DNA of 64,000 bases, taken from positions 1 to 64,000 of the forward strand of contig CAVQJC010000014.1 of the NCBI GenBank assembly GCA_963712745.1, written 5' to 3'. Below, one piece after another: positions 9,381 through 62,112 of this stretch. The position numbers and the translations under genes were made by a program. The notes beneath the pieces were generated by a model. The model was not told where the DNA came from and did not search any database. It was given only the letters and a program-made list of their open reading frames with translations. Source of the stretch: an uncultured Chloroflexia bacterium. Its GTDB lineage: Bacteria; Chloroflexota; Limnocylindria; Limnocylindrales; CSP1-4. How positions within the stretch are numbered: the stretch's first letter is position 1; each line of letters opens with the position of its first letter.

Positions 9381-10406
9381 CTACTTCTCAGCCTTGCCCG
9401 TGGCCTGGAAACCGCTGCTGGCCTTCGGCTGGGCCTGGGCCTTCGGCTGGGCCTGGTCCTGCTGCCGAGCCTGCGCCTTGGGCTCGGACCTGGGCGGCGT
9501 CGGGGGACCGGCGACCGGACCGGCGCCCGTCCGTGACCTGGCGTCGGCCTGGGACTTCGGCTTGGTCGCGGTCTTGGTCGTGGCCTTCTGTGTCGCGGAC
9601 TTGGCCCTGGCATCGGCTTTGGCCTTGGGTGCCTGGGTCTTGGCCTTCTGTGTCGCGGCGTTGGTCCTGGCCTTCTGAGCCGGCGTCTTGACCTTGGCCT
9701 TCCGTGACTTGGCGTTGGCCTGGGACTTCGTCTTGGCGATCTGCGTCCCGGTCTTGGCCTTGTTTGACTTCATCCTGTCCCGCGCCGCCGTCTTGACCTG
9801 AGCCGCCGGCGCTGCCTTCGAGGCCGACCGGGACTTGCCCGCGCCGACATCGGCCGTCGATGCGGGCTGGTCCTTGGATGTGGCCCTGGCGTTTGCTTGC
9901 GCGGGTGCGTCGACGACTGGCGAGACCGGCCCGGGCGCAGGTTGCTGGATGAGACCGGGGCCGGGTTCCGGGAACGTCACGACCGCTGTCAGCGTCTCGG
10001 GGCGGAACCACGCGTCGGCGGCGACACGGTGCTGAACATCGACTGCGCCATGCGCCCTGCCGGCTCGATGACTTCCGTCGCGACCACGCCGGCGGCGGCT
10101 AGAACGCCGGCACTGCCCACGCTCGCCACGAGTAGAGCGACGCACGACGGTGGTCAGGGCCTGCAGCCGAACCAGCGACGTGGTGCGTGGCGCGGCGGCA
10201 GTCGCGACGTTCTGCCAGAACGTGCGCCAGATGGTGACCGCATCCCCGAACCGGATCGCGGCACGGAAGCGACGCGGAGCAGTGGACGGCGGCTCACGAT
10301 CGATGCGCTGCTGGATGCGCTCGGCGAGCCCGACGGGCGGCACCACCGGCGTCGCTGTGAGATAGCGGTGCAGCAGACTCGACGTCCTGCCGGCTGGCTG
10401 ACTCAT
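9381..10406 (-). CDS. Putative membrane anti-sigma factor with Lys/Ala/Gln-rich low-complexity tail
   Basis: Overlaps the sigma stop codon (ATGA); a hydrophobic helix VALLVASVGSAGVLAAAGVVA sits in an alternative frame near 10080-10140; KAK/QAQ-rich C-terminus. Confidence 0.6.
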   Translation of the reverse strand: MSQPAGRTSSLLHRYLTATPVVPPVGLAERIQQRIDREPPSTAPRRFRAAIRFGDAVTIWRTFWQNVATAAAPRTTSLVRLQALTTVVRRSTRGERGQCRRSSRRRRGRDGSHRAGRAHGAVDVQHRVAADAWFRPETLTAVVTFPEPGPGLIQQPAPGPVSPVVDAPAQANARATSKDQPASTADVGAGKSRSASKAAPAAQVKTAARDRMKSNKAKTGTQIAKTKSQANAKSRKAKVKTPAQKARTNAATQKAKTQAPKAKADARAKSATQKATTKTATKPKSQADARSRTGAGPVAGPPTPPRSEPKAQARQQDQAQPKAQAQPKASSGFQATGKAEK

Positions 10407-34576: not shown

Positions 34577-34639
34577 GGACCCGCCCAGTCGCTGGGGGGA
34601 CCCGCCCGGTCGCTGGGGGGCTCCGCCCAGGCGTTGGGG
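34577..34639. repeat. 21-bp tandem repeat x3, each unit with a mini-hairpin
   Basis: ggacccgcccagtcgctgggg / ggacccgcccggtcgctgggg / ggctccgcccaggcgttgggg. Confidence 0.75.
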
Positions 34640-34648
34640 GATAGAAGG

Positions 34649-37905: not shown

Positions 37906-37940
37906 CTGGCAAGCCCGGGCGCGCGAGACACCTCGTCCTC

Positions 37941-38000
37941 TTCGCGTGATCCGGCCGGGCTTCGCGTGATCCGGCCGGGCTTCGCGTGATCCGGCCGGGC
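37941..38000. repeat. Perfect 20-bp tandem repeat x3
   Basis: ttcgcgtgatccggccgggc x3. Confidence 0.92.
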
Positions 38001-46756: not shown

Positions 46757-48543
46757 ACCGCGCTGAGCAGGTCTCGCGCCGCCTCATCGGCATCATCGCC
46801 GGCCTGCTGGTGGTGGCGGCCATCCTCTTCGGAGCGCTCATCATCGAGGACTTCAATCGGGCACTCGAGCCGGAGCTCGAGCGACGTTCGGGGCTCATTG
46901 GGACCACGGTGCACGACGACGTGGAGCGCGCGCTGAACGTAGGCATCCCACTGGAACGGCTGGTTGGCGTGGAGGCCTACGTCGAGACGCTGATGACCGA
47001 CTTTGCTGAGCTCGAGTTCGTGGTCGTCCGCGACGGGGCCGGCACCGTCCTCCACTCGGGCGGCGACGTCTCGGAGGCGGTTCGTGCACAAGACTTCAAG
47101 GTCCCGCTTGAAGGCAGCGCTGAGGATGCCGGTTCGCTCGTCTCGCGCTACCCACTGGCGACCGAGCTCGGGACCGTGGGCGCCATCGATGTGGGCGTGG
47201 ACGGCGGGTTCGTGCGCGTCAGACTCGAGGATCTCGCACTCGATCTCATGGTTATCGTGGTCGTGGCGCTGGTGCTGGCGTACGAGCTGGCGCTTGCCGT
47301 GAGCGAGAGGGTGGCGGGTCGCGGACGGCGCCGCTCGTCGGGCGTGGCCGAGGCCAGGTTGGTCCTCTTCGTCTTCGTGGTCGGGGAGGAGCTGAGCAAG
47401 TCGTTCCTGCCGCAGTTCATCCTTGGCGCCACCGATCCGGGGGCGGCCCTCGACCCGGCGGTGGCGGTGAGCCTGCCGATCGTGGCCTACCTGCTCACTC
47501 TTGGCCTGGCCTCGCCTTTCGCCGGCAAGCTCGCCGGGCGTTACGGCGAACGCACTCTCTTGATGGCTGGCCTGGTGTTCGCGGCGGCAAGCCAGGTAGG
47601 CATGGTGGTCGCGGCGGACCTGCTTCAGATCACGGTGCTACGAGGCCTGACGGGAGTGGGATACGCGATCTCGACCATCGCCTGCCTTGAGTACCTCATC
47701 GAACGACAGCCTCGAGCCGATCGGATCCGTGCCACTGGAGCATTCATAGCCGTCGTGATCGGGGGCACATTCGCCGGGACTGCGCTAGGTGGCATCCTGG
47801 CCGACCGACTTGGATACCGTCCGGTGTTCGCCCTCAGCGCGGTCCTGGTGCTGGCCGCGGGGCTCCTGGCCTGGCGACTGATGTCGGCCGCGAGGACCGG
47901 GAGCCAGGCCGAGGAACCGCAGGCGTTCTCGATACGCGATGTCGCCGGCGTCCTGCACCAGCCAAGGCTGCTGGCACTCATGGCCGGGGTGACCGTGCCC
48001 ATGAACGTGTTGCTGGCCGCGTTCCTGTGGTACCTGGTGCCGTTGACACTGGCCGCGTCCGGCGAGAGCGCCGCAGTCATCGGCCGGACGCTGATGCTCT
48101 ACTACCTGGCCGTGTTGCTCGCGGCACCCGCGGTCGGCCGGTTGACCGCCGCCGGGCTCGACGCCAGGTTGCTGGTCGGCATCGGCTCCGTCATCAGCGG
48201 GGCGGTGCTGCTGATCCCGGCGGGCCAGCTGACGACGCTCGCCGTGTCGGTAGCGGTCGTGATCGTCGGCCTCGGCCACGCGGCGATCCGCGGGCCACAG
48301 CTGGTCCTGGCTATCGAGATCGGCGAGGCTGAACGCGCGGGGCTCGGGCGAGGCGCCACACTAGCGGTGATGCGGACGCTCGAGCGACTTGGAGCTCTGG
48401 TAGGTCTCCTCGTGGCGGCCGTGGTCGCGGCGCGATGGGACCTGCTGGTGGCCATGGCGGCGATCGGCGTGGCCACTGGCGTCGCGGGCGTGGCATACCT
48501 CTCGACCGTGCTTGTCGGAGAACGGGGCACCGCGCGTGTCTAG
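46753..48543 (+). CDS. MFS transporter with N-terminal extracytoplasmic sensor-like domain
   Basis: TM-loop-TM followed by an MFS body (GKLAGRYGER, LRGLTGVG, GGILADRLGYRPVF). Confidence 0.82.
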   Translation: MNRAEQVSRRLIGIIAGLLVVAAILFGALIIEDFNRALEPELERRSGLIGTTVHDDVERALNVGIPLERLVGVEAYVETLMTDFAELEFVVVRDGAGTVLHSGGDVSEAVRAQDFKVPLEGSAEDAGSLVSRYPLATELGTVGAIDVGVDGGFVRVRLEDLALDLMVIVVVALVLAYELALAVSERVAGRGRRRSSGVAEARLVLFVFVVGEELSKSFLPQFILGATDPGAALDPAVAVSLPIVAYLLTLGLASPFAGKLAGRYGERTLLMAGLVFAAASQVGMVVAADLLQITVLRGLTGVGYAISTIACLEYLIERQPRADRIRATGAFIAVVIGGTFAGTALGGILADRLGYRPVFALSAVLVLAAGLLAWRLMSAARTGSQAEEPQAFSIRDVAGVLHQPRLLALMAGVTVPMNVLLAAFLWYLVPLTLAASGESAAVIGRTLMLYYLAVLLAAPAVGRLTAAGLDARLLVGIGSVISGAVLLIPAGQLTTLAVSVAVVIVGLGHAAIRGPQLVLAIEIGEAERAGLGRGATLAVMRTLERLGALVGLLVAAVVAARWDLLVAMAAIGVATGVAGVAYLSTVLVGERGTARV

Positions 48544-49564
48544 GGTTCTGGCGACGGCTGTCACGCTTCTGATCACGCTGGCCGCCATAACGCCGTCGGC
48601 CGTCGACGCGGCGGACGACGACGCGGGCAGCGGACCGTTCGAGGTGGTCATGGTCACCTGGCGTGGCTGCGAGGATGCCTGCGCCGGCTTCTGGGACTAC
48701 CTCGACGCTGTCGGCCTCGACGTCTCCCCGACCATCCTCGACGCGAACCAGGATCGCGACCGACTGCCAGGCCTGGTCGAGCAGATCGACGCCCTGGATC
48801 CCGACCTCGTGGTCACCTGGGGCACGTCGGTGACGCTGGGGATCATCGGCACCGTGGACGGAGAGGAGGGGCCTCGCATTGACGATGTGCCGGCCATCTT
48901 CATGATCGTGGCAGACCCAGTGGGTGCCGGGATCATCTCGGAGACCGGCGTCTCCGGCAGGCCGCTCGTCACCGGCACGCACAATCGTGTGCCCGAGGCC
49001 GTGCAGATGCGTGTGCTGGCGGACTACCTCCCATTCGATCGTATCGGGGTCATCTACAACGACGACGAGCTCAACGCGGTGCTCAAGGCGGAGGAAGTCC
49101 GCCGGGTCGGGGCGGAACAGGGATTCGAGGTGGTTGAGCGCGTGCTAGCCAAGGACAAGGACGGTGTACCGCTGGTCGACGATATCCCGGTTGCCGTGGC
49201 GGAGATCGCCGACGCGGACGTGGACCTCATCTACCTTGGTTCGAGCTCGTTCCTGCTCGACAACGCAGACCTGTACACCTCGTCCGCGCTCGACCAGGGC
49301 CTGCCGCTGGCTACGGCCTACGAGGCCATGGTGCGAGACTCACAGGCCCTCATCGCACTCGGCAGTGCGTACTACAACGTGGGCCAGCTCGCCGGCTTTC
49401 AGGCTGAGCTGATCCTGCGCGAAGACCGGATCCCGGGGGACCTCGAGGTCGTCGGCCTGGACAGGTTCAGCGTGGTCGTGAACTTGGCGACTGCCAGGCA
49501 GCTGGAGCTCTACCCGCCCCTGCTCTTGCTACGATATGCGGACGTCGTCGATTCGAGCCAGTGA
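48536..49564 (+). CDS. ABC-type substrate-binding protein (ABC_sub_bind-like), no cognate permease or ATPase nearby
   Basis: Signal peptide; PDLVVTWGT, VADPVGAGII, VTG, IGVIYNDDELNA, YYNVGQLAG, VNLATARQL. Confidence 0.82.
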   Translation: MSRVLATAVTLLITLAAITPSAVDAADDDAGSGPFEVVMVTWRGCEDACAGFWDYLDAVGLDVSPTILDANQDRDRLPGLVEQIDALDPDLVVTWGTSVTLGIIGTVDGEEGPRIDDVPAIFMIVADPVGAGIISETGVSGRPLVTGTHNRVPEAVQMRVLADYLPFDRIGVIYNDDELNAVLKAEEVRRVGAEQGFEVVERVLAKDKDGVPLVDDIPVAVAEIADADVDLIYLGSSSFLLDNADLYTSSALDQGLPLATAYEAMVRDSQALIALGSAYYNVGQLAGFQAELILREDRIPGDLEVVGLDRFSVVVNLATARQLELYPPLLLLRYADVVDSSQ

Positions 49565-49581
49565 ACGACCCCATCGTTCAC
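49561..49581. terminator. Hairpin at the end of the three-gene module
   Basis: gtgaacga-cccca-tcgttcac. Confidence 0.45.
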
Positions 49582-49690
49582 ATCTGGCCGGTCATTCGAT
49601 TGGACAGCCGTACGATGGGGACGTAGCCTCGGCCTCCGACAGCGACCGGGGGGAGCCGGCCAGCCGTGGCCCACGAAGGAGGAATCCCCG

Positions 49691-50545
49691 ATGTCCGACT
49701 ACGCCAACCCCAACGCACTGGTCAGCCCCGAGTGGGCACAGCAGCACCTGGACGATCCCGGCGTCCGCTTCGTGGAGGTGGACGTCGATACCGAGGCCTA
49801 CAGCCAGGGACATATCCCCGGCGCGGTCGGCTGGAACTGGGAGACGCAGCTCTCGGATCGCGTCCGGCGCGACATCGTCAGTCGCGAGGAGCTCTCCGAG
49901 CTGCTCTCGAACTCGGGTATCGGCCCGGAGACACACATCGTGCTCTACGGCGACAACAACAACTGGTTCGCGGCCTGGGCCTACTGGCAGCTACGACTCC
50001 ACCGCGTGGAACGCGTGAGCCTCATCAACGGAGGCCGGGCCTACTGGCTGGAGAACGACCTGCCGCTGGTCCCCGATGTACCCGACTATGCCCCCACGGG
50101 CATCGAGGTGGCCGAGCCCGACTTTGCCACGCGCGCCTTCCAGCGCGACGTGGCCGACCAACTGGGTGATCCGGACCTGGCCCTGGTCGACGTCCGTTCC
50201 CCGGCCGAGTTCTCGGGCGAGGTGATGGCGCCCCCGGGTATGAGCGAGACGGCGCAGCGAGCGGGGCACATCCCCGGCGCCGAGTCAGCACCATGGGCCC
50301 AGACGGTCAACGAGGACGGCACGTTCAAGTCGGCCGATGAGCTGCGCGCCCACTACGAGGCCAAGGGCGTGACCGCGGACAAGGACGTGGTGGCCTACTG
50401 CCGCATCGGCGAGCGATCGAGCCATACCTGGTTCGTGCTGCACGAGCTGCTCGGCTACGAGCGCGTGCGCAATTACGACGGCTCGTGGACCGAGTGGGGC
50501 TCGCTCATCGGCGCACCCATCGAGAATCCGAGCGCTGGGGGCTAG
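49691..50545 (+). CDS. Thiosulfate sulfurtransferase (tandem rhodanese)
   Basis: GHIPGAV, LYGDNNNWFAA, DVRSPAEF, YCRIGERS, NYDGSWTEW. Confidence 0.94.
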   Translation: MSDYANPNALVSPEWAQQHLDDPGVRFVEVDVDTEAYSQGHIPGAVGWNWETQLSDRVRRDIVSREELSELLSNSGIGPETHIVLYGDNNNWFAAWAYWQLRLHRVERVSLINGGRAYWLENDLPLVPDVPDYAPTGIEVAEPDFATRAFQRDVADQLGDPDLALVDVRSPAEFSGEVMAPPGMSETAQRAGHIPGAESAPWAQTVNEDGTFKSADELRAHYEAKGVTADKDVVAYCRIGERSSHTWFVLHELLGYERVRNYDGSWTEWGSLIGAPIENPSAGG

Positions 50546-50551
50546 GACAGG

Positions 50552-51079
50552 CTAGGACGCGCCGACCTGGTCAGGGTCCAGGCAGAAGGTGAACATGCGC
50601 TCCGCCTCGATGCGCGCGTAGGCCACGCCCGGGTCGTCGAAGATGGCCGAGGCGGAGTCGCCGAAGCGGGCCCCGTAGTAGTCGAGCAGCACCTGGCGGA
50701 AGCCTCCGTCGTCATGCGACCTGGGGTCGATCTCGACGGCGCGACCGTGGGTCGTGACGCTGAGCGCTTCCGCCGGCAGGTAGGTGGCACTGACCGCGGG
50801 ACGCCGTCGGATGTGACGGAAGCGCAGTGACGCATCGCTCGAGCCGAAGTACCACTCACCCCGGTAGAAGAAGCCGTCCACCGGGCCGGTGATGGGCCGC
50901 CCGTCGGAAGTGACCGTGGCCAGCGTCAGCAGGCACATACCCTGGAGTCGATCGGCCAGCTGGCCGGCGGTCAGCCGGCGCTCGGGCGTGATGACCTCGC
51001 GGAGGTGCGACCCGGCCGACTCGTAGCTGGAGTCGAGCGTGGCCTGGAGCCGCGCCAGGTCCTCGGTCGTCTCGTGCAT
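50552..51079 (-). CDS. Pyridoxamine 5'-phosphate oxidase-like FMN/F420-binding protein
   Basis: LATVTSDGRP, RFRHIRRRPAVSAT, VTTHGRA. Confidence 0.82.
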   Translation of the reverse strand: MHETTEDLARLQATLDSSYESAGSHLREVITPERRLTAGQLADRLQGMCLLTLATVTSDGRPITGPVDGFFYRGEWYFGSSDASLRFRHIRRRPAVSATYLPAEALSVTTHGRAVEIDPRSHDDGGFRQVLLDYYGARFGDSASAIFDDPGVAYARIEAERMFTFCLDPDQVGAS

Positions 51080-51102
51080 CGGCCGGCGGCTGTCTGGTGC
51101 GA

Positions 51103-52167
51103 CTAGCCGCCGATAGCCAGGCCGTTGGCCGCCAGCGCGGCGGCACGGGAGCTACGGTTGCGCTTGGCCTCCTCGGGCACCTGGTCGCGGGCGTGGTAGG
51201 ACGAGCGCACGAGCGGTCCCGACTCGACATGCTTGAAGCCGAGCGCCAGGCCTTCCGCCTTCATCTCGACGAACTCATCAGGATGGACGTAACGCTCCAC
51301 CGGCAGGTGGTTGGGGGTGGGGCGCAGGTACTGGCCGAGGGTGAGGATGTCGCAGTCGACCGCGCGCAGGTCGCGGAACGTCTGGCTCAGTTCCTCGCGC
51401 GTCTCACCCAGGCCGACCATGATGCTCGACTTGGTGTGCACGGTCCCGGGCCGGCCGGCGAACTCGAGAGCCATGGCCTTGGCGTCGGCGAGGACTCGCA
51501 GCGAGCGGTCGTACCGGGCCCGCTTGCGCACCGGCTTCTGCAGCCGTTCCACGGTCTCGACGTTGTGGTTGAGGATGTCCGGCGCCGCCTCCATGACCGT
51601 GCGCAGGTCGGCGTCGAGGTAGTCGGGGATGAGCACCTCCACGCCCATGGCCGGACTGCAGCGGCGCATCTCGCGGATGGTCTCGGCGAAGATGCGGGCA
51701 CCGCCGTCATCAAGGTCGTCGCGGCAGACGCTGGTGACCACCACGTGCTCGAGGCCCATGACCGCGACCGCTTCGGCCACTCGACGCGGTTCGTCGTCGT
51801 CATCCCAACTCGGCCGGCCGGTCTTGACCGCACAGAATCCGCAGGCGCGGGTGCACGTGTCGCCGAGGATCATGACCGTGGCCGTACGCTCCTCCCAGCA
51901 CTCGCCGATGTTGGGGCACATGGCCTCCTCACAGACGGTGTTGAGCGTCTGGCCCTTGACCAGGCCCTTGAGCTCGTTGTAGTTGGCACCGGTCGGCAGC
52001 TTGGCCTTGATCCACTCGGGATGGCGCTTGCGATCGGGGCCGGTTCGAGCCGCGGTGGCGTCGACCGAGCCGCCCATGGCGATGGTCAGCGGCTGACCGA
52101 TCTCGGGCGAGCCGTGGCTGTGACAGCCCCCGCTGCCGTTGCTGAAGATCGGGAGTTCCTTGGCCAT
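51103..52167 (-). CDS. lipA: Lipoyl synthase
   Basis: [38 protein letters not shown]. Confidence 0.97.
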
Positions 52168-52170
52168 GTC

Positions 52171-53712
52171 CTACCAGATGGGGGTGTTCTGGTCGACCGC
52201 ACCGAGCCAGGCTGCGACGTCCTGCAGGAAGGCACCCGCCTGGGCACCGTCGGTGGCCCGGTGATCGATGGCGATGCACATGTTCATCATCGAGCGGACA
52301 GCGATGGCGTCGCCCTGGTCCTCCAGCACGACCGGCCGCTTCACGATCTTCTCCATGGTGATGATGGCGACCTCGGGCACGTTGATGATCGGCAGCGTCA
52401 GGATAGAGCCGGTCCAGCCGGTGTTGTCGACGGTGAAGGTGCCGCCCTCGAGATCCTCCGGCCGAAGCTTCTTGTTGCGGGCCCGCTTGGCCAGGTCGTT
52501 GATGGCGGCGTTGAGGCCGTGGAGGCTGAGGTCCTGCGCATTCTTGATGACCGGCACCACGAGACCGTCGTCGACGGCTACGGCGATGCCGATGTTGATG
52601 GCCTTTCGACGCCAGTGCCCTTCTTCGGTCCAGTGGGCGTTGAAGTCGGGGAAGCGGCGCAGGGCCTCGACACAGGCCTTGGTCATGTAGGCCACGTAGC
52701 TCATCGACATGCCTTCGCGCGACTTGTAGTCGGCATTGACGGCAGCGCGGGCCTTGACCACCGGGGTCATGTCGACCTCGATGGTGATGTAGGCAGCCGG
52801 CACTTCGACGAAGCGCTGCATGTGCCTGGCGATGGCCTTGCGCATGGGCGTGAGCTGCTTGAGCGAGTCGCCGTGCTTGACGGGGGAGTCGGTGGGGTCG
52901 GCAGCGGGCGGGGCGGGTGCCAGGGCTGGCGCGGGTGTCAGGGCTGGTGCGGATGCCAGGGCTGGTGCAGGTGCCAGGGCTGGCGCGGGTGCCAGGGCTG
53001 GCGCAGGTGCCAGGGCTGGCGCGGGTGCCAGGGCTGGTGCCCCCGAAGCGGGGGCCGGACCGGAGCCGTTGGTCGCGCCGGCCGAAGCTGCCTCGACGTC
53101 AGCGCGGGTGATGCGGCCGCCCATGCCCGAGCCGGCGATGGCGGTGACGTCCACCCTCAGCTCGCGTGCCAGGCGACGCACGGCCGGGGTCATACGCATG
53201 TTGGTGGGGACGACGACAGGGGCCGCTGGGGCGGCGGTGGCCGGTGCCGTGGTCGGCATGGGGGTCGCGGGGGCCTGGGTCGCTGGTGCCTGGGCCGCAG
53301 GTGCGGGGGTCGGCTGTGCCTGGGTCGCTGGTGCCTGGGCCGCAGGTGCCTGGGCCGCAGGTGCGGGCGGCGGCGGCTCGGCTCCAACGGCCGTAGCGCC
53401 GGCCGCCTCGCCCGACGTGCCCGGGGCCGCCGCCGCATCTGCCGGTTCGGCTGACGCTCCCGGAGCGGCCGTCGCGCCGGCCGCGTCCACCTCGGCGATG
53501 GGCGCATCGTTGCCCACGGTGTCGCCCTCGGAGACGAGGATCTTGGTGAGGGTGCCCTCGAACGGTGAAGGGACCTCGGCGTTGACCTTGTCGGTCACGA
53601 CTTCGACCAGTGGGTCGCCCACGCGAACGGGGTCGCCGACGGCCTTGAGCCACTTCCCGATGGTGCCCTCTTCGACGCCTTCACCGAGCTGGGGCATGGT
53701 CACCTGGGGCAT
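52171..53712 (-). CDS. 2-oxoacid dehydrogenase E2 (dihydrolipoamide acyltransferase)
   Basis: Lipoyl domain TDKV, E3-binding TPAVRRLA...GRITRAD, catalytic DHRATDG. Confidence 0.95.
   Translation of the reverse strand: MPQVTMPQLGEGVEEGTIGKWLKAVGDPVRVGDPLVEVVTDKVNAEVPSPFEGTLTKILVSEGDTVGNDAPIAEVDAAGATAAPGASAEPADAAAAPGTSGEAAGATAVGAEPPPPAPAAQAPAAQAPATQAQPTPAPAAQAPATQAPATPMPTTAPATAAPAAPVVVPTNMRMTPAVRRLARELRVDVTAIAGSGMGGRITRADVEAASAGATNGSGPAPASGAPALAPAPALAPAPALAPAPALAPAPALASAPALTPAPALAPAPPAADPTDSPVKHGDSLKQLTPMRKAIARHMQRFVEVPAAYITIEVDMTPVVKARAAVNADYKSREGMSMSYVAYMTKACVEALRRFPDFNAHWTEEGHWRRKAINIGIAVAVDDGLVVPVIKNAQDLSLHGLNAAINDLAKRARNKKLRPEDLEGGTFTVDNTGWTGSILTLPIINVPEVAIITMEKIVKRPVVLEDQGDAIAVRSMMNMCIAIDHRATDGAQAGAFLQDVAAWLGAVDQNTPIW
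52916..53041. repeat. Coding 18-bp tandem repeat (~7x APALAP) in the E2 linker
   Basis: ggtgccagggctggcgcg-like units. Confidence 0.85.
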
Positions 53713-53796
53713 GAGTCGACTCCTGGGAATTCCGTTCGCTGGACTGGGATGGGCACTACTCGAGTCAAGGACTCCATGATAGCGACCCCTCCGATT

Positions 53797-53817
53797 CGGA
53801 CCCTGATACAGGGTCCG
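53797..53817. promoter_or_regulatory. Perfect palindrome upstream of the HTH-nuclease gene
   Basis: cggaccctg-ata-cagggtccg. Confidence 0.6.
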
Positions 53818-53867
53818 TGAAGTGCCGGGTAACGGCGTGTGAAGCGAGCATCGGCACCATCGGCGCC

Positions 53868-54596
53868 ATGGACGACGTACGCATCGGCAATACCCTCCGC
53901 GTCATCCGCATCCGCAAGCACCTGCGCCAGTGCGACGTCGCCCGCCGCGCCGGCGTTTCGCGCCAGGTCGTCGGCCGACTCGAGAACGGATACGCGGGCC
54001 GATACACGCTCGACACCATCCGCTCGATCGCGAACGCCCTCGGCGCTCGCTACGACGGACGGCTGCACTACCGGGGCGCCGAGCTCGATCGTATCGTCAA
54101 CGCCGCCCACGCCGAGCTCCACGAGTCGGTCGCTGCACACCTCGAACGCCTGGATGGCTGGACATGGCTGCCCGAGGTGACCTTCGCCCACTACGGCGAA
54201 CGCGGCATCATCGACATCCTCGCCTGGCATGCGGAGACGCGTAGCCTCCTCATCATCGAGTTGAAGACCGAGCTGGTCGACCCCCAGGGTCTGGTAGCGG
54301 TGATGCATCGTCGTGTTCGCCTCGGTCGCACGGTCGCGCGACAGCACGGCTGGGATCCCTCCTCGGTGAGCGCGTGGGTCATCATCCGCGACACCGCCAC
54401 CGAGCGGCGCCGTGCGAAGAGGCACGCACAGCTGCTTCGCAAGGCGTTCCCGCACGAGGGTAGGACCGCGCGTGCATGGCTATCGCACCCACGCGGCCGA
54501 CTCAGCGCTCTGTCCTTCTGGTCAGATGTCACGCCGGGTGGCGCTAGCAAGGTGCCCGTGCGCACTCAGCGCGTCCGGGTTGCTCATCGGCCCTAG
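53868..54596 (+). CDS. XRE-HTH protein fused to a PD-(D/E)XK nuclease-like domain
   Basis: LRQCDVARRAGVSRQVVGRLENG HTH; PEVTF...GIIDILAW...LLIIELKT (E...D...ExK). Confidence 0.8.
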   Translation: MDDVRIGNTLRVIRIRKHLRQCDVARRAGVSRQVVGRLENGYAGRYTLDTIRSIANALGARYDGRLHYRGAELDRIVNAAHAELHESVAAHLERLDGWTWLPEVTFAHYGERGIIDILAWHAETRSLLIIELKTELVDPQGLVAVMHRRVRLGRTVARQHGWDPSSVSAWVIIRDTATERRRAKRHAQLLRKAFPHEGRTARAWLSHPRGRLSALSFWSDVTPGGASKVPVRTQRVRVAHRP

Positions 54597-54709
54597 ACCC
54601 CGCAGGAGCCAAGCGTGACCGGACATGTCGGAGATCGCTGTTGACGTGCCCTGGCCGACGGGGCGGCCGACCATCTGGCTAGGGCCACCGAGGATGACAT
54701 CTGACTAGA
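54517..54709. other. Long imperfect inverted repeat overlapping the 3' end of the HTH-nuclease gene
   Basis: 54517-54531 pairs with 54695-54709 (14/15) and 54537-54548 with 54678-54689 (11/12), colinear. Confidence 0.7.
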
Positions 54710-54730
54710 TGGCGGCGAGGCCGCCAGCGC

Positions 54731-54830
54731 GGGCCTGTCGCCAGCGGCCGAGGCCTGTCGCCAGCGGCCGAGGCCTGTCGCCAGCGGCCGAGGCCTGTCG
54801 CCAGCGGCCGAGGCCTGTCGCCAGCGGCCG
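54731..54830. repeat. 20-bp tandem repeat x5
   Basis: (a/g)ggcctgtcgccagcggccg x5. Confidence 0.93.
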
Positions 54831-54858
54831 CGCGCAGCCGCGCCCCACGGCCGCGGAG

Positions 54859-56292
54859 CTAGAAGTTGATGGACTTGCCGTCGACGGCCATGGCCGCCTC
54901 GCCCATCGTCTCGGAGAGCGTGGGGTGCGGGTGGACGGCAGAGCCGACCTCCCAGGCGGTGGCCTCGAGCAGCATAGCCGTGGAGGACTCGGCGATGAGC
55001 TCGGTGACCTGATGGCCGATCATGTGCACGCCCAGCAGCTCGTCGGTCTCGGCGTCGGCGATGACCTTGACGAAACCGGTGGTGTCGCCCTCGATGATGG
55101 CCTTGCCCGACGCCATCATCGGCATCTTGCCGACCTTGGTCTTGAGGCCGCGCTCCGCGCACTGCTCGGAGGTGAGGCCGATCGAGGCCACCTGCGGCCG
55201 CGAGTACGTCGCTCGCGGCATCTTCACGTAGTCGATCTCCTCGACCTCGAGCCCGGCGATGGCGTGCACCGCGGCGATGCCCTCGTGCGTGGCCACGTGC
55301 GCGAGCCACAATCCGCCGGCGATGTCGCCCACGGCATACAAGTGCGGGTCGGCGGTGCGCATCTCCGCGTCGGTCTGGACGATGCCGCGGTCCACCACCG
55401 CACGCGTCGTCTCGAGACCGATGTCCTCGACATTGGCAGCTCGACCTGTGGCAACCAGCATCTGCTCGGCACGCAGCTCGGCCGGCTCGGCGCCCTCGGG
55501 GCCAACCATCAGCGACACGCCCGAGTCGTCTGCCTTGACCGCTCCCGTGTCGAAGCGCGCCGAGGTGATGACCTTGATGCCGCGCTTCTTGAAGGCGCGC
55601 GCCATCTCCCTCTGGATCTCACCGTCTTCGAGCGGCACCAAGCCCGGCAGATACTCGAGCACGGTGACCTCGGCACCCATGTCGTGGTAGTAGGAGGCGA
55701 ACTCGACACCCACCGCACCGGCGCCCACGACGATGATCGACTCGGGCATATGCGAGGAGCGGAGCACGTCGTCGGACGTAACGATGCGCTCGCCATCCGG
55801 CACCAGCCCCGGCAGCGATTTGACCCGCGAGCCGGTGGCCACGATCACGTCCGTGGCCTTGAGGATGGTCTCGCCGGTCGACTTGCCCTCGCTGTCGGTC
55901 GTCTTCACCCGGACCTGCTGCGGGCCTTCGAGCCGGCCGCGGCCGACGATGTACTCGACCTTGTTCTTCTTGGCCAGACTGGTCACGCCCTTCACCAGGC
56001 GCGAGACGATCCGGTCGCGCCGCTTGGCGATGGCCTCAGGGTCGGCCGATACGTCGGCGGCCGAGATGCCGAACTCGGTCGAGTGCTTCATGTGGTCGAG
56101 CAAGTCGGCCGAAGCGAGCATGGCCTTGGTCGGGATACAGCCGATGTGCAGGCAGGTGCCTCCGAGGCCCATGGGGTTGTCGTCCACGAGGGCGACCTTG
56201 AGCCCCAGCTGGCCGGCGCGGAACGCGGCGCCGTAGCCGCCGGTGCCGCCGCCGAGGACGACGATGTCGAAGGACTGGGTTTCGTTGGGCAC
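54859..56292 (-). CDS. lpdA: Dihydrolipoamide dehydrogenase
   Basis: GGGTGG, GGTCLHIGCIPTK, ATGS, GAGAVGVE, YAVGD, HPHPTLSE. Confidence 0.97.
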   Translation of the reverse strand: MPNETQSFDIVVLGGGTGGYGAAFRAGQLGLKVALVDDNPMGLGGTCLHIGCIPTKAMLASADLLDHMKHSTEFGISAADVSADPEAIAKRRDRIVSRLVKGVTSLAKKNKVEYIVGRGRLEGPQQVRVKTTDSEGKSTGETILKATDVIVATGSRVKSLPGLVPDGERIVTSDDVLRSSHMPESIIVVGAGAVGVEFASYYHDMGAEVTVLEYLPGLVPLEDGEIQREMARAFKKRGIKVITSARFDTGAVKADDSGVSLMVGPEGAEPAELRAEQMLVATGRAANVEDIGLETTRAVVDRGIVQTDAEMRTADPHLYAVGDIAGGLWLAHVATHEGIAAVHAIAGLEVEEIDYVKMPRATYSRPQVASIGLTSEQCAERGLKTKVGKMPMMASGKAIIEGDTTGFVKVIADAETDELLGVHMIGHQVTELIAESSTAMLLEATAWEVGSAVHPHPTLSETMGEAAMAVDGKSINF

Positions 56293-56340
56293 GGTGGACC
56301 TCGGAAGAACGTGATTCGGACGGGTGCGATGGTAGCAAAG

Positions 56341-56637
56341 CACCCGCATCGCGCTCGCTTCAGACCGGCGCCACACCTGCATCGCGCTCGCTTCAGACCG
56401 GCGCCACACCTGCATCGCACTCGCTTCAGACCGGCGCCACACCTGCATCGCGCTCGCTTCAGGCCGGCGCCACACCTGCATCGCGCTCGCTTCAGACCGG
56501 CGCCACACCTGCATCGCACTCGCTTCAGACCGGCGCCACACCTGCATCGCACTCGCTTCAGACCGGCGCCACACCTGCATCGCACTCGCTTCAGACCGGC
56601 GCCACACCTGCATCGCACTCGCTTCAGACCGGCGCCA
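56341..56637. repeat. 33-bp tandem repeat x9 between divergent lpdA and plsY
   Basis: cacctgcatcgc(g/a)ctcgcttcagaccggcgcca, contiguous, no spacers. Confidence 0.95.
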
Positions 56638-56669
56638 CACCCAAATCGGCCGACCTATACTCGCCCCGC

Positions 56670-57338
56670 GTGGACGACCTACCCCTGACCCTCCTCCTGC
56701 TCGCCATGGGCTATCTCGCCGGCTCGCTGCCGATGGGCGTCATCGTGGCCCGCCTCACCGGCGGCACCGACCCCCGGACCGTCGGCTCCGGCCGCACCGG
56801 CGGCACCAACATGCTGCGCGCCGGCGGTTGGGGCCGGGCCATCGCGGTCGCCTCACTCGACCTGGCCAAGGGCGCCGTGCCGATCCTCGTCGCCCGGGCT
56901 CTCGGTGCCCCGGTCGAAGTCCAGGCACTGACCGGCCTGGCCGCCGTCCTGGGCAGCTGGAAGTCGGTCTTCCTGGGTTTCCACGGCGGGCGCGGGGTGG
57001 CCACCGGCGTCGGCGGCATGATCGCCATCGCACCCTGGATCATCCCCATCGCGCTGCCTGCCTTCGCCATCGTCATCTGGACCACGCGCTACGTGTCGCT
57101 GGGCTCGATCCTGGGGACCGCCTTCGGGGCCGGCGTGGTCATCGTGGCGATCGCGCTCGGCTGGCTCGACCCCGGCTGGCTGCTCTACGTCATCCCCGGC
57201 GAGATCATCGTGTGGGTCGCCCACCGCGACAACATCTCGCGCCTGCTGGCGGGGACCGAACGGAAGTTCCAGCCAGGCGACCGCGCGCCTACCCCGCCTC
57301 CGGGTTCAGAGACTCCCGAGGAACCGACCGAGTCCTAG
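56670..57338 (+). CDS. plsY: Glycerol-3-phosphate acyltransferase
   Basis: GYLAGSLPMG, GSGRTGGTN, DLAKG, FHGGRGVAT, YVSLGS, HRDNISRLLAGTE. Confidence 0.94.
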   Translation: MDDLPLTLLLLAMGYLAGSLPMGVIVARLTGGTDPRTVGSGRTGGTNMLRAGGWGRAIAVASLDLAKGAVPILVARALGAPVEVQALTGLAAVLGSWKSVFLGFHGGRGVATGVGGMIAIAPWIIPIALPAFAIVIWTTRYVSLGSILGTAFGAGVVIVAIALGWLDPGWLLYVIPGEIIVWVAHRDNISRLLAGTERKFQPGDRAPTPPPGSETPEEPTES

Positions 57339-57547
57339 CCCTGTCCGCCCCGGCCGAGCAACGAGCGCACCAGCACCAGGACGGTGCCGACCACGAGCAC
57401 GAGCACGACCACCGGCATGGCGGCCAGGGCACCGTCGGCCCCCGGCAGCAAAGCGCTGGCCACGCTGGCGAGGAGCACGCCTGCGGCGAGCGCGGCGATG
57501 AGCAGCACCACCCGCCGGTCACGAGGGACGTGCCGTGGCTCTTCCAC
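57335..57547 (-). CDS. Small two-TM membrane protein
   Basis: 70 aa with two hydrophobic helices, starting 2 bp downstream of nnrE. Confidence 0.55.
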   Translation of the reverse strand: MEEPRHVPRDRRVVLLIAALAAGVLLASVASALLPGADGALAAMPVVVLVLVVGTVLVLVRSLLGRGGQG

Positions 57548-57549
57548 GG

Positions 57550-58353
57550 TCAGGAGAGGTCAGCCTGCAGGGGGATGCCGATGGGCGCCACGAGGACCCG
57601 CCCCGCCAACAGTCGCGTGCGCTTCCTCAGGCCCTCCTTGGGCCGGTGGAAGGTGATGGTCACGTCCGCCCGCACCACCGGGTCGGAGGCCTCGCCGCTG
57701 GTCAGGTCGATCGAGGTAGGCGTATCCACGGCCAGCACCGGCACGCCGCCCTCCCTCGCGCGTACGACGACGTCGACCGCGGTTCGGATGGGCTCGCGCA
57801 ACAGTCCGCTCACGCCGGTGCCGAGCAGCGCGTCGATGACCAGGCCCGCCCGCTCGATGCCGTTGAGGTAGAGGGCCACGTCGGAGTCACGCGATGTCGC
57901 GACCCGGTTGATGATGTCGAAGCCGTCGAGACGATTCCAGTTGAGCAGGGCATCGGGCGTGGTGGGCGACCCGCTGCTCGAGAGGAGCACGACCTCCGAG
58001 GCGATCCCTTGACCAGCCAGCAGCCGCGCTGCGACGAGGCCGTCGCCACCGTTGTTGCCCGGGCCGCAGAGGATGAGCACGACCGACCGCAGCGGACGGT
58101 CGTTCGAGACCATCAGGGCCCTGGCCGCCGCAGCGACGGCCGTGCCCGCCTGCTCCATGAGCCAGGCCCCGGGCGTACCCAGCCGCTGGGCCCGCACGTC
58201 GGCGCCGCTCATCTCCTCCCCCGTCATCGGCTCCAGGGCAGCCTGCTCGCGCCAGCGTTCGGTGAGCGCTTCGATGTCGGTGTCGGACTCGAAGATGAAC
58301 GGATCAGAAGCCGGCAGGGGGAGACCGGTGGTGGGGTCGAGGGTCGGTGTCAT
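57550..58353 (-). CDS. nnrE: NAD(P)H-hydrate epimerase (stand-alone YjeF-N)
   Basis: LMEQAG, LCGPGNNGGDG, IDALLGTG, AVDTPTS, TITF, APIGIP. Confidence 0.92.
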   Translation of the reverse strand: MTPTLDPTTGLPLPASDPFIFESDTDIEALTERWREQAALEPMTGEEMSGADVRAQRLGTPGAWLMEQAGTAVAAAARALMVSNDRPLRSVVLILCGPGNNGGDGLVAARLLAGQGIASEVVLLSSSGSPTTPDALLNWNRLDGFDIINRVATSRDSDVALYLNGIERAGLVIDALLGTGVSGLLREPIRTAVDVVVRAREGGVPVLAVDTPTSIDLTSGEASDPVVRADVTITFHRPKEGLRKRTRLLAGRVLVAPIGIPLQADLS

Positions 58354-58354
58354 G

Positions 58355-59279
58355 TCAGCTCGATGGTAGGCGCACCGACCCATCGGCGGAGCGTTCCACG
58401 AGTCCATCGCGCTCCAGTGCGATGAGCGCAGCGCAGGATCTCCTCCTCGCCATGCGTCCCCATGGCCGATGGCAGCTGCTCCCAGGCGCCGTCATCGAGG
58501 GAGCGCAGGTGCTCGACGATGCGGCCACGGAGCCAGCGCGTCGTACGCTCGAAGGGGACCTGTTCCGAATCGGAGTGGCGCCCGGGCGTCTCGACCCGTC
58601 CGGCGCTGGCACACCAGTCGCTCACCGGGCACTCCTCACAGCGCGGGCGCCGGGAGACGCAGACGGTGGCGCCGAGTTCCATCGAGGCCTGCGTCCAGGT
58701 GGCTGGGTCGCCGAGGTCGACCAGCCCATCGGCCTCGGCTTGCAGTTGGCGTACGCTCATCGACAGCCCGAGCACACGCGAGACCACGCGACGAACGTTC
58801 GTGTCCACCGCCGCCACCGGCTGCCCGAAGGCGATGGCCGCGACCGCCCTGGCGGTGTACGGGCCGACCCCGGCCAATCCTTGCAGCGCAGCGAGGTCAG
58901 GTGGGACTCTCCCGTCGTGGTCGGCCTCGATAGCCGCGGCGGCACGCTGCAGGTTCACTGCCCGGCGGTTGTAGCCCAGTCCGGCCCAGGCCCGCAGCAC
59001 CTCGGCGGTCGAGGCCGCGGCCAGCGCGCGCGGCGATGGGTAGCGCGCCATGAACTCGTACCAGGCCTCGTCGACCCGCGCGATCTGCGTCTGCTGGGCC
59101 ATGACCTCCGAGACGAGGATGGCCCACGGATCGCGCGTTGAGCGGATGCGGAGCGGCCTCGCTCGCGGTCCGTACCATGCCAGCAAGGCTCTCTGGAAGC
59201 GCCGGCGGCGGGTGCCACGAAGCGACCCGAACCACCCGCTACCAGGACCATCTGCACCTGAACGTGTCGATTCCTTCAT
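58355..59279 (-). CDS. mutY: A/G-specific adenine glycosylase (short form; frameshift near 3' end)
   Basis: LVSEVMAQQT, WAGLGYNRRA, HhH GVGPYTA, VDTNVRR, Fe-S motif CxxxxxxCxxCxxxxxC. Confidence 0.92.
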
Positions 59280-59325
59280 CTCCGGTATACCCACTTTCGC
59301 CGAAGGTCGGGCACAATGCCCAGGA

Positions 59326-62112
<2,787 letters not shown>

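What the first reader, a model, noticed from the sequence alone, without database searches (positions are those of the whole stretch)
53797..54830. Candidate selfish cassette: HTH-PD-(D/E)XK nuclease gene sitting antisense inside the lpdA-E2-lipA run
Seen: an XRE-HTH protein with an E...D...ELK nuclease-like motif separates co-oriented lpdA and E2 on the opposite strand. It is bracketed by a perfect 9-bp palindrome (53797-53817), a long 3' hairpin and a 5x20-bp array. No transposase, integrase, methylase or antitoxin is adjacent. Known: lpdA, E2 and lipA commonly cluster, and lone PD-(D/E)XK genes with structured flanks occur in selfish elements. Inference: a compact mobile or homing-like element, or an orphan defence nuclease, of an undescribed type.
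Basis: partly seen in the sequence, partly recalled or inferred. Interest (0 to 1): 0.78.

Follow-up and report, generated by a model that had tools for sequence, protein, structure and literature searches.

The report
Stand-alone HTH-nuclease gene cassette
A small gene for a DNA-binding protein fused to a restriction-enzyme-like nuclease, carrying its own compact control region, has sat between two pyruvate-dehydrogenase genes since this bacterial genus arose, and belongs to an undescribed gene family that slowly comes and goes between housekeeping genes.

Summary
Window 53868-54596 (+) encodes a 242-aa XRE-HTH protein with a C-terminal PD-(D/E)XK fold. D116, E131 and K133 are kept in 313-315 of 316 relatives. 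It lies antisense between E2 and lpdA.

The mobile-cassette reading of this copy is not supported. Every ortholog of 55% identity or more sits at the same place in the genus. One relative shows a deletion scar. The 9-bp palindrome and the 20-bp array are private to this genome.

The family does look like a self-contained module. It was found in two families of one Chloroflexota class, at 1-9 matches per genome. Across paralogs it keeps phased AAG boxes over a -10 box that predicts a leaderless mRNA, and an inverted repeat joining the CDS 3' end to downstream DNA. One clade occupies four different housekeeping slots. This genome holds an intact copy, a decayed remnant and a short unoccupied junction.

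No homolog was found in the phage, plasmid or viral collections searched, and no recombinase, methylase or toxin gene is adjacent.

Best reading: an autoregulated, catalytically intact controller-nuclease fusion, inserted at the base of the genus and then inherited vertically. Its target is unknown.

The parts
53868..54596 (+). CDS of the HTH-nuclease protein ('H'), 242 aa, stop included
   Evidence: ORF. Same as called protein P0001. Conserved MDDVR start. dN/dS 0.14-0.26 in 9 pairs of relatives.
53883..54047 (+). XRE/Cro-C1 type helix-turn-helix domain (residues about 6-60)
54084..54530 (+). PD-(D/E)XK fold domain (residues about 73-221); D116 at 54213-54215, E131 at 54258-54260, K133 at 54264-54266
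53817..53860 (+). Predicted control region: three boxes 11 bp apart (TGAAGT 53818-53823, GTAACG 29-34, TGAAGC 40-45), then a -10-like CACCAT (53855-53860), 7 nt before the ATG
   Evidence: Sequence. Family-wide position matrix over 80 loci: A at -11 in 56, T at -7 in 54, AAG at -25..-23, AAGC at -36..-33, SD-like motif in 5 of 80. Function is inferred.
53797..53817 (.). Perfect 9-bp palindrome with 3-nt loop, between the E2 and H starts
   Evidence: Not conserved in 10 orthologous loci. One arm overlaps a stretch (CCGATTCGGAC) conserved upstream of E2 in most of the aligned relatives.
54514..54563 (+). 5' arm of the 3' inverted repeat, inside the CDS (codes SFWSDV...)
   Evidence: Fold z -3.26. 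The same CDS segment is repeated in the flanks of 23 of 82 family loci.
54663..54712 (+). 3' arm of the inverted repeat; on the - strand it reads like a decayed copy of the gene's 3' end
54732..54830 (.). 20-bp x 4.9 perfect tandem array in the convergent H/lpdA spacer; judged not part of the cassette
   Evidence: Genome holds 634 arrays. Orthologous spacers carry unrelated arrays.
52171..53712 (-). Dihydrolipoamide acyltransferase (E2), transcribed divergently from H
   Evidence: Pfam 2-oxoacid_dh, Biotin_lipoyl, E3_binding.
54859..56301 (-). Dihydrolipoamide dehydrogenase (lpdA), convergent with H
   Evidence: Pfam Pyr_redox_2 and Pyr_redox_dim. Start placed by alignment with relatives.

Best explanation
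The gene is one resident copy of a class-restricted family of stand-alone genes. Each encodes a controller-type XRE HTH fused to a catalytically intact PD-(D/E)XK (restriction-enzyme-like) nuclease.

Each family member carries its own compact control region. Two or more AAG boxes, phased 11 bp apart, overlap the -35/spacer zone of a promoter whose -10 box ends 6-7 nt before the start codon. The mRNA should therefore be leaderless.

The most likely mechanism is that the protein's own HTH binds these boxes and sets its own low expression, as R-M controller proteins and antitoxins do. The nuclease domain would then cut DNA at targets that are still unknown.

An inverted repeat pairs the last part of the CDS with downstream DNA and closes the unit at the 3' end.

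This copy entered the lpdA-E2 spacer at about the base of the genus. It has since been inherited vertically under purifying selection and was lost by deletion in one relative.

Shown: architecture, conserved triad, synteny, scars, conserved cis-elements.
Inferred: autoregulation, leaderless start, nuclease activity, role of the 3' repeat.
For: Architecture
- HTH above Pfam cut-offs.
- AF2 model pLDDT 89.3 with the alpha-beta-beta-beta-alpha-beta core.
- 36 of 40 C-terminal domains give sub-threshold hits to YhcG_C PDDEXK.

Selection
- D116 in 315, E131 in 313 and K133 in 314 of 316 sequences.
- dN/dS 0.14-0.26 for both domains in 9 pairs.

Residence at this site
- 11 of 28 relatives' loci place H beside E2 and/or LpdA, including every locus of 60% identity or more.
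- All 12 of 80 loci with 55% identity or more share the lipA-E2 side, and 11 have lpdA within 5 kb.
- The G021 spacer keeps the upstream boxes, the ATG and about 12 codons.
- 0 of 29 lpdA loci from other genera have H within 1.5 kb. One has lpdA, 177 bp, then E2.

Control region
- Position matrix over 80 loci.
- 5-mer TAAGC occurs 42 times at -70..-18 against 0 at -300..-120. Spacing is 11 bp in 17 of 27 cases.
- DNA homology between paralogs starts about 43 nt before the ATG and ends at the stop.

Analogy
- The ahdIC mRNA is leaderless, with two operators upstream (PMC2275141, passages).
- The HTH is 34-35% identical to C.AhdI.

No accessory genes.
Against: - No binding, transcription-start or cleavage data exist. 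The control-region reading rests on sequence patterns only.
- A consensus sigma-70 scan found no promoter in 53600-54900.
- XRE dimers usually bind inverted repeats, not direct ones.
- The H tree and the LipA+LpdA tree agree only in part. L105 and L045 are placed differently. Pairwise identities correlate weakly (Mantel r 0.24, p 0.07; Spearman -0.07).
- No named nuclease family reaches its curated threshold.
- The 3' repeat may be a relic rather than a working part. Energy scans give it only modest support.
- The folds of L051 and L112 did not show the long stem. I did not check the coordinates I chose for them.
Confidence: 0.55

Rival explanations
1. Local transcription factor of the PDH/lipoate genes. 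The HTH controls the divergent E2-lipA operon (and perhaps lpdA), and the nuclease-like domain serves as a sensor or oligomerisation module.
For: - Transcribed divergently from E2, with a shared 155-bp control region.
- Genus-wide synteny.
- Purifying selection.
- Paralogs sit beside other metabolic genes such as nrdJ, thiolase/acyl-CoA dehydrogenase, ROK and HPPD.
Against: - In genomes of other genera, lpdA and E2 do without it: 0 of 29 lpdA loci have it.
- Orientation relative to neighbours shows no preference: -+ 23, +- 20, -- 18, ++ 14.
- Neighbour functions have no common theme.
- The conserved boxes sit on the gene's own promoter and are alike across paralogs. That is not what diversified local regulators show.
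- The catalytic triad is almost invariant.
Confidence: 0.15
2. Active compact mobile or homing-type element. The HTH-nuclease cuts empty sites or its own ends and so spreads the cassette between intergenic slots.
For: - One clade (67-75% aa identity) lies in four different housekeeping contexts.
- The copy in the gat operon of this genome was not detected beside aspAT in the 29 other genomes of the genus examined.
- This genome has only 116 bp at the Lgt/FG-GAP junction, against 1656 bp where it is occupied.
- It also holds a remnant with the boxes plus 33 codons at the CysMet/GAF-kinase site.
- The 5' boxes and the 3' inverted repeat are conserved.
- A 270-nt inverted repeat, 94% alike, flanks the gene in L120.
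- The gene is free-standing between conserved genes, as phage homing endonuclease genes are (PMC2790892, listing only).
Against: - This copy is syntenic, and its only in-genus absence is a deletion scar.
- The closest paralog in the genome is 51% identical, so no recent copy exists.
- No homolog in 50,697 phage records. Of 72,556 plasmid records, one had a match, covering the HTH only. None in IMG/VR.
- No target duplication or shared terminal sequence was seen beyond -43..stop.
- The H tree largely follows context groups.
Confidence: 0.12
3. Single-chain toxin-antitoxin-like or restriction-like defence or addiction module. The HTH part keeps a harmful nuclease part silent until a trigger arrives.
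For: - The HTH's nearest sequence relatives are antitoxins and R-M controllers: HigA2 E 5.4e-9, HigA3, C.BclI, HipB; TIGR03070 E 1.2e-9.
- 1-9 matches per genome where present. Not found in any streamlined f2 genome at the thresholds used (0 of 24; 0 of 2 and 0 of 4).
- Turnover with remnants.
- Weak hits to PADLOC PDC-S02 and NCBIfam Upx over the nuclease motif.
- Xre domains fused to enzyme partners are known in TA-like systems (PMC2701414, passages).
Against: - All defence and TA family hits are far below threshold or cover the HTH only.
- The neighbours are housekeeping genes, not defence islands.
- Several clades are stably syntenic.
- No partner gene is present.
Confidence: 0.2
4. NucS-like DNA repair nuclease with a swapped DNA-binding domain.
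Against: - Multi-copy and patchy: 27 of 36 genomes of the genus, and none of 268 Chloroflexota genomes outside the class families f1-f3.
- NucS_C Pfam matches only 1 of 40 members, at E 0.04.
- It has its own autoregulatory-looking promoter.
Confidence: 0.05

Closest known systems
Controller (C) protein plus restriction endonuclease of type II R-M systems (e.g. ahdICR)
   Same: - The ahdIC mRNA is leaderless and preceded by two operators (PMC2275141, passages). Here the -10 box ends 7 nt before the ATG, with phased boxes just upstream.
- A PD-(D/E)XK nuclease follows the HTH.
   Different: - HTH and nuclease are one polypeptide here.
- No methyltransferase lies nearby.
- The boxes are direct repeats 11 bp apart. 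C-boxes, as I recall them, are inverted.
- Up to 9 paralogous matches per genome, at fixed housekeeping sites.
NucS/EndoMS (PDB 2vld, 5gke)
   Different: - The N-terminal domain here is an HTH, not the NucS N domain.
- There is no family-level sequence match.
- The gene is not a single-copy core gene.
Can2/Card1 CARF nucleases (PDB 7bdv, 6wxw, 8q43)
   Different: There is no CARF domain and no CRISPR context.
YhcG_C (PF06250) and other PD-(D/E)XK Pfam families
   Same: 36 of 40 C-terminal domains match YhcG_C around the G-ERG-ID...IELK motif. A few match HSDR_N_2, PDDEXK_11, UPF0102, NucS_C or MmcB.
   Different: The best E-value is 0.001, and the window's own domain scores 13.7 bits against a cut-off of 32.5. 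It is not a member at the curated threshold.
Type II antitoxins HigA2/HigA3/HipB and Xre-enzyme fusions (Xre-COG2856)
   Same: The HTH is closest in sequence to these. Xre fused to an enzyme domain and lineage-specific expansion are described for Xre-COG2856 (PMC2701414, passages).
   Different: There is no adjacent toxin gene. The fused domain is a nuclease fold, not a Zn peptidase.
Free-standing homing endonuclease genes (T4 mobE; PD-(D/E)XK family such as I-Ssp6803I)
   Same: A solitary endonuclease gene in an intergenic slot between conserved genes, with patchy presence and decayed copies. PD-(D/E)-XK is one of the known homing endonuclease families (PMC6083498, abstract start in listing).
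   Different: - This copy has long-term synteny.
- No recent copies exist and none was found on phages or plasmids.
- No cleavage data exist.

Membership tests
XRE/Cro-C1 HTH (Pfam HTH_31, HTH_3) | Score above the Pfam gathering threshold | tested here: met
   HTH_31 35.4 bits against 27. HTH_3 33.2 against 23. HTH_26 30.1 against 22.
XRE/Cro-C1 HTH (Pfam HTH_31, HTH_3) | Five-helix lambda-repressor-like fold | tested here: met
   [not shown]
PD-(D/E)XK nuclease superfamily | alpha-beta-beta-beta-alpha-beta core | tested here: met
   H73-94, E98-108, E111-121, E126-133, H139-158, E166-174; local pLDDT mostly above 90.
PD-(D/E)XK nuclease superfamily | D on strand 2 and (D/E)xK on strand 3, conserved | tested here: met
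   D116 in 315, E131 in 313 (+2 D) and K133 in 314 (+2 R) of 316 sequences. Invariant in alignments A1 and A3.
PD-(D/E)XK nuclease superfamily | Structural likeness to solved members | tested here: met
   [not shown]
Any named PD-(D/E)XK family (YhcG_C, NucS_C, UPF0102/YraN, HSDR_N_2) | Score above the curated threshold | tested here: not met
   Best is YhcG_C at E 0.001, with 13.7 bits against 32.5 for the window protein. NCBIfam YraN scores 15 bits against 171.
NucS/EndoMS | NucS N-terminal domain plus NucS_C | tested here: not met
   The N-terminus is an XRE HTH. NucS_C matches 1 of 40 members at E 0.04.
Type II R-M with controller protein | Cognate methyltransferase gene in the unit | tested here: not met
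   No methylase family among the genes from 48512 to 62112.
Type II R-M with controller protein | Leaderless C transcript with operators at its own promoter | tested here: inconclusive
   Sequence pattern only: -10-like box at -13..-8, three boxes 11 bp apart, SD-like motif in 5 of 80 family loci. No transcript-end data. The RNA-library contigs are not strand-resolved.
Type II toxin-antitoxin pair | Adjacent co-transcribed toxin gene | tested here: not met
   The gene is solitary between E2 and lpdA on the opposite strand.
Transposon / IS / integrative element | Transposase, integrase or recombinase gene; tRNA or att-type borders | tested here: not met
   None within about 5 kb. None among 34 recurrent neighbour clusters of 80 family loci. 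No tRNA gene.
Homing-type / mobile cassette | Recent copies at new sites or on vehicles | tested here: not met
   The nearest paralog in the genome is 51% identical. No match in phages. The one plasmid match covers the HTH only. None in IMG/VR.
Homing-type / mobile cassette | Occupied and clean empty sites among relatives | tested here: inconclusive
   PDH site: outgroup G308 has lpdA, 177 bp, then E2, but the in-genus absence in G021 is a scar. Another clade has an empty Lgt/FG-GAP site in this genome, 116 against 1656 bp. Gain and loss cannot be told apart without a rooted species tree.
Homing-type / mobile cassette | Conserved element ends | tested here: inconclusive
   The 5' boxes and the 3' inverted repeat recur across paralogs. 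Control genes score 12 or more in 7 of 142, against 24 of 80 for the family. The palindrome and the 20-bp array are not conserved. No target duplication was seen.
Homing-type / mobile cassette | Cleavage of the unoccupied target | not testable with these tools
   Needs a bench assay.

The most novel reading that the evidence does not exclude
The family is a new kind of minimal selfish module. It is a single gene whose product is both its own controller (a C-protein-like HTH on phased boxes) and a site- or structure-specific PD-(D/E)XK nuclease. The nuclease would act on the cassette's own 3' inverted repeat or on empty junctions, moving or inverting the cassette between intergenic slots of housekeeping operons with no transposase or integrase.
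Probability: 0.12. Interest if true: 0.8.

Novelty: new variant of a known kind. Interest (0 to 1): 0.5.

Why it matters
If the reading holds, this is a compact single-gene 'controller plus restriction-like nuclease' unit with a recognisable cis-architecture.

- It is confined to one little-studied, uncultured class of Chloroflexota.
- It has 1875 representatives at 50% clustering, yet no family model reaches its curated threshold in Pfam or NCBIfam.
- It offers a clean system for asking how a potentially harmful nuclease is kept in a chromosome without a methylase or antitoxin.
- It could also show how such genes settle inside core operons (lpdA-E2, gatA-aspAT-gatB) without breaking them.
- For annotation, 'XRE family transcriptional regulator' hides an intact nuclease.

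If it turns out to be only a local regulator, the finding is ordinary.

Tried and rejected
Structure of the spacer
- The spacer alone as a hairpin: 54590-54860 folds at z -0.31 (+) and -1.07 (-). 54597-54731 folds at z 0.05 and 0.33. Rejected. The stem needs the CDS arm.
- Consensus promoter and terminator scan of 53600-54900 found 0 sites.
- Rfam over 50000-58000 gave only two chance miRNA matches, at E 0.45 and 0.88.

Palindrome and motifs
- The palindrome as a conserved operator: not found in 10 orthologous upstream regions.
- The 33-bp array upstream of lpdA as a second binding array: it holds TGAAGCGAG, but it is private to this genome. TGAAG[CT]G is not enriched genome-wide, at 911 hits against 975 in reversed sequence. 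By my rough estimate, about 2 arrays would hold the motif by chance, and 3 were seen. Treated as chance.
- Chains of strict boxes at 11-bp spacing in this genome: one 3-box chain, unrelated to H.

Sequence and fold searches
- PDB sequence search with the C-terminal profile gave one hit, at E 0.66.
- ESM Atlas returned only unnamed Chloroflexota clusters.
- PADLOC and PHROGs gave HTH hits, plus weak PDC-S02 hits.

Sequencing runs
- Four runs were laid on 52900-55900. No contig joins lpdA to E2 across the gene.
- RNA-library contigs cover 54226-54390 (identical), 53663-53921 and 54794-54946. They are unstranded and may be DNA carry-over, so they show neither transcription nor its start.

Other analyses
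- Duplex-energy scan for the 3' stem: only a modest peak, with 27 of 80 loci strongest at offsets 30-90.
- Folds of L051 and L112 did not show the long stem. I did not check the coordinates I chose.

Tools and runs that failed
- Complex prediction (homodimer) was not available.

Literature
- Searches found no paper describing this family. That says nothing about journals outside the library.
Full report
**1. What is there**

Window 53868-54596 (+) is an open frame of 242 codons. The longer GTG frame from 53817 gives 259 aa. It lies between E2 (52171-53712, -) and lpdA (54859-56301, -), with lipA after E2 and plsY before lpdA.

Pfam finds only an XRE-type HTH at the N-terminus: HTH_31 at 35.4 bits against a cut-off of 27. 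NCBIfam finds only sub-threshold antitoxin and repressor HTH models.

An AlphaFold2 model built on 47 relatives has mean pLDDT 89.3. It shows the HTH (residues 1-63) followed by helix 73-94, strands 98-108, 111-121 and 126-133, helix 139-158 and strand 166-174. That is the PD-(D/E)XK core. D116 lies on strand 2, and E131 and K133 on strand 3.

An all-against-representatives structural search puts these best for this part:

Sequence agrees weakly. 36 of 40 C-terminal domains hit YhcG_C PDDEXK below threshold. A few hit YraN, NucS or a restriction enzyme model.

**2. The bracketing features**

The palindrome is exact: arms 53797-53805 and 53809-53817, with fold z -4.07. None of 10 orthologous upstream regions has it. 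One arm overlaps a stretch that is conserved upstream of E2 in most of the aligned relatives.

The 20-bp array (54732-54830) is perfect. It is not special to this gene:
- This genome holds 634 tandem arrays. 76 of them have period 12-60, at least 3 copies and at least 90% matches.
- The same spacer in orthologous loci carries unrelated arrays.

The '3' hairpin' is real only when the CDS end is included. Arms 54514-54563 and 54663-54712 are 50 nt and 74% complementary. The fold of 54505-54722 gives z -3.26. The spacer alone gives z 0.05.

No recombinase, methylase, toxin or tRNA gene is nearby.

**3. Is this copy mobile?**

Record titles of related loci name Chloroflexota, mostly Limnocylindria MAGs.

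In the genus, 27 of 36 other genomes have a family member. 0 of 24 genomes of a neighbouring family with roughly 1-1.4-Mb genomes do.

Of 28 relatives' loci, 11 place the gene beside E2 and/or LpdA. That includes every locus of 60% identity or more.

Among 80 loci from species-representative genomes, all 12 with 55% identity or more have lipA-E2 on one side, and 11 have lpdA within 5 kb. None of the other 68 does. Some of these loci are the same genomes as.

G021 lacks the gene. Its 244-bp lpdA-E2 spacer still aligns with the upstream boxes, the ATG and about 12 codons, so it is a deletion scar.

Outside the genus:
- 0 of 28 best-hit loci have PDH flanks.
- 0 of 29 lpdA loci have the gene within 1.5 kb.
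- One genome has lpdA, 177 bp, then E2.

The gene therefore entered the spacer near the base of the genus and stayed.

The gene tree and a LipA+LpdA tree share most groupings but differ for L105 and L045. Identity matrices correlate weakly (Mantel r 0.24, p 0.07). dN/dS is 0.14-0.26 in both domains.

**4. The family**

Family size and range:
- A word-indexed search gives 803 relatives.
- An exhaustive profile search gives 1875 representatives at E up to 0.001.
- A genome scan gives 418 loci.
- In a sample of 300 other Chloroflexota genomes it occurs in 14 of 15 and 11 of 15 genomes of two families of the class. It occurs in 0 of 2 of the streamlined family and 0 of 268 elsewhere.
- With the stricter full-length query, a third family of the class also had none, 0 of 29.
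- It has 1-9 matches per genome.
- None was found in phages or IMG/VR. The one plasmid match covers the HTH only.

D116, E131 and K133 are kept in 315, 313 and 314 of 316 sequences.

Clades of the protein tree match genomic contexts: E2|LpdA, thiolase|acyl-CoA dehydrogenase, upstream of nrdJ, ROK, HPPD. Neighbour orientation shows no preference.

**5. Conserved cis-architecture**

Over 80 loci of all clades the start codon is preceded by:
- a -10-like box (A at -11 in 56, T at -7 in 54)
- AAG at -25..-23
- AAGC at -36..-33
- an SD-like motif in only 5

TAAGC occurs 42 times at -70..-18 against 0 at -300..-120. Successive boxes are 11 bp apart in 17 of 27 cases.

The window has three boxes at 53818, 53829 and 53840, and CACCAT at 53855-53860. 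The paralog on contig C12 has about ten 22-bp units with the same GTGAAGTG box.

DNA homology between paralogous loci runs from about -43 to the stop only.

At the 3' side, the ungapped match between the CDS end and the reverse complement of the next 300 nt scores 12 or more as follows:
- 24 of 80 family loci
- 0 of 80 for an internal CDS segment
- 14 of 80 in direct orientation
- 7 of 142 other genes of this genome, where the two top scores of all 144 genes were the two family genes

blastn finds 25 fragments in 23 of 82 loci. 12 are inverted and downstream, and nearly all come from the same CDS segment. A locus's own downstream arm is the best partner of its CDS end in 14 of 24 loci.

The window's arm reads like decayed coding sequence. 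A relic kept alike by conversion is therefore as possible as a selected hairpin.

**6. Turnover elsewhere**

The clade of the C12 paralog (67-75% identity) sits in four contexts:
- aspAT|gatA, in this genome only. It was not detected beside aspAT in the 29 other genomes of the genus examined. In at least 7 of 9 gaps I inspected, an antisense membrane-protein-like ORF lies there instead.
- Cons_hypoth698|GltD
- Lgt|FG-GAP
- CysMet|GAF-kinase

In this genome:
- The Lgt/FG-GAP junction is 116 bp, against 1656 bp when occupied.
- The CysMet/GAF junction keeps the boxes plus 33 codons (E 6e-13).
- The third junction has no trace.

In L120 a 270-nt inverted repeat, 94% alike, flanks the gene. This is slow gain, move and decay. 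Its mechanism is unknown.

**7. Reading**

The best-supported account is an autoregulated controller-nuclease fusion.
- The HTH is closest to R-M controllers and antitoxins.
- ahdIC is likewise leaderless, with operators upstream (PMC2275141, passages).
- The nuclease site is under selection.

A role as regulator of E2-lipA is possible but poorly supported. Active homing is not shown for this copy.

The family fits no model at curated threshold, and my five literature searches found no description of it.

Noticed in passing
window 56341-56641: A 33-bp x 9.1 array (97% matches) sits exactly between the conserved divergent plsY and lpdA promoter boxes (CGAGTATAGG ... CTTTGCTACCATCG). Ten orthologous loci have only 70-160 bp there and lack it. 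On the lpdA strand each unit holds TGAAGCGAG, the same 9-mer as the box next to the HTH-nuclease gene's -10. I judged this to be probably chance.
   Followed up: partly
G000 contig C12 (locus L124 7717-8651): The 51%-identical paralog lies antisense inside gatC-gatA-[H]-aspAT-gatB. It is preceded by about ten 22-bp units, each with a GTGAAGTG box. In the 29 other genomes of the genus examined, H was not detected beside aspAT. In at least 7 of 9 gaps inspected an antisense membrane-protein-like ORF lies there instead. Its best homolog in this genome is on contig C6.
   Followed up: yes
whole genome G000; window 37940-38000, 34577-34640, 9420-9736: Short GC-rich tandem arrays are a genome-wide habit: 634 TRF arrays in 4.2 Mb. 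76 are strong, and 29 of those have periods that are not multiples of 3. Relatives carry unrelated arrays in the same spacers. Their origin and role are unexplained.
   Followed up: partly
G000 contig C20:526250-526372: A decayed remnant of a family member lies between a Cys/Met PLP-enzyme gene and a GAF histidine-kinase gene. It keeps the promoter boxes, the ATG and 33 codons. Relative G029 has an intact copy at the same place. The G021 scar at the PDH site keeps the same parts. The same kind of break has therefore occurred twice.
   Followed up: partly
locus L120 4674-4943 and 5650-5919: A 270-nt inverted repeat, 94% complementary, flanks the family gene in this MAG. The right arm starts inside the CDS 3' end. 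It could allow inversion of the gene, or it could be an assembly artefact.
   Followed up: no
relatives G025:C20, G024:C1, G015:C1, G010:C1, G009:C1 (table): Several family matches are split over frames or hold an in-frame TGA. These are either pseudogenes or indel errors of long-read assemblies.
   Followed up: no
loci L058-L122 (nrdJ group) and L068-L123 (ROK group): Two different clades of the family both lie upstream of the class II ribonucleotide reductase gene nrdJ. One is co-directional and one divergent. In L098 the gene is inverted between the same flanks.
   Followed up: no
loci L201-L203 (streamlined family f2): In the roughly 1-1.4-Mb genomes, lipA follows lpdA directly with no E2 between, and plsY stays divergent from lpdA.
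   Followed up: no
window 52913-53037 and 53262-53374: The 18-bp and 15/60-bp repeats inside E2 encode the Ala/Pro-rich linkers between its lipoyl, E3-binding and catalytic domains. Copy number differs among relatives.
   Followed up: no
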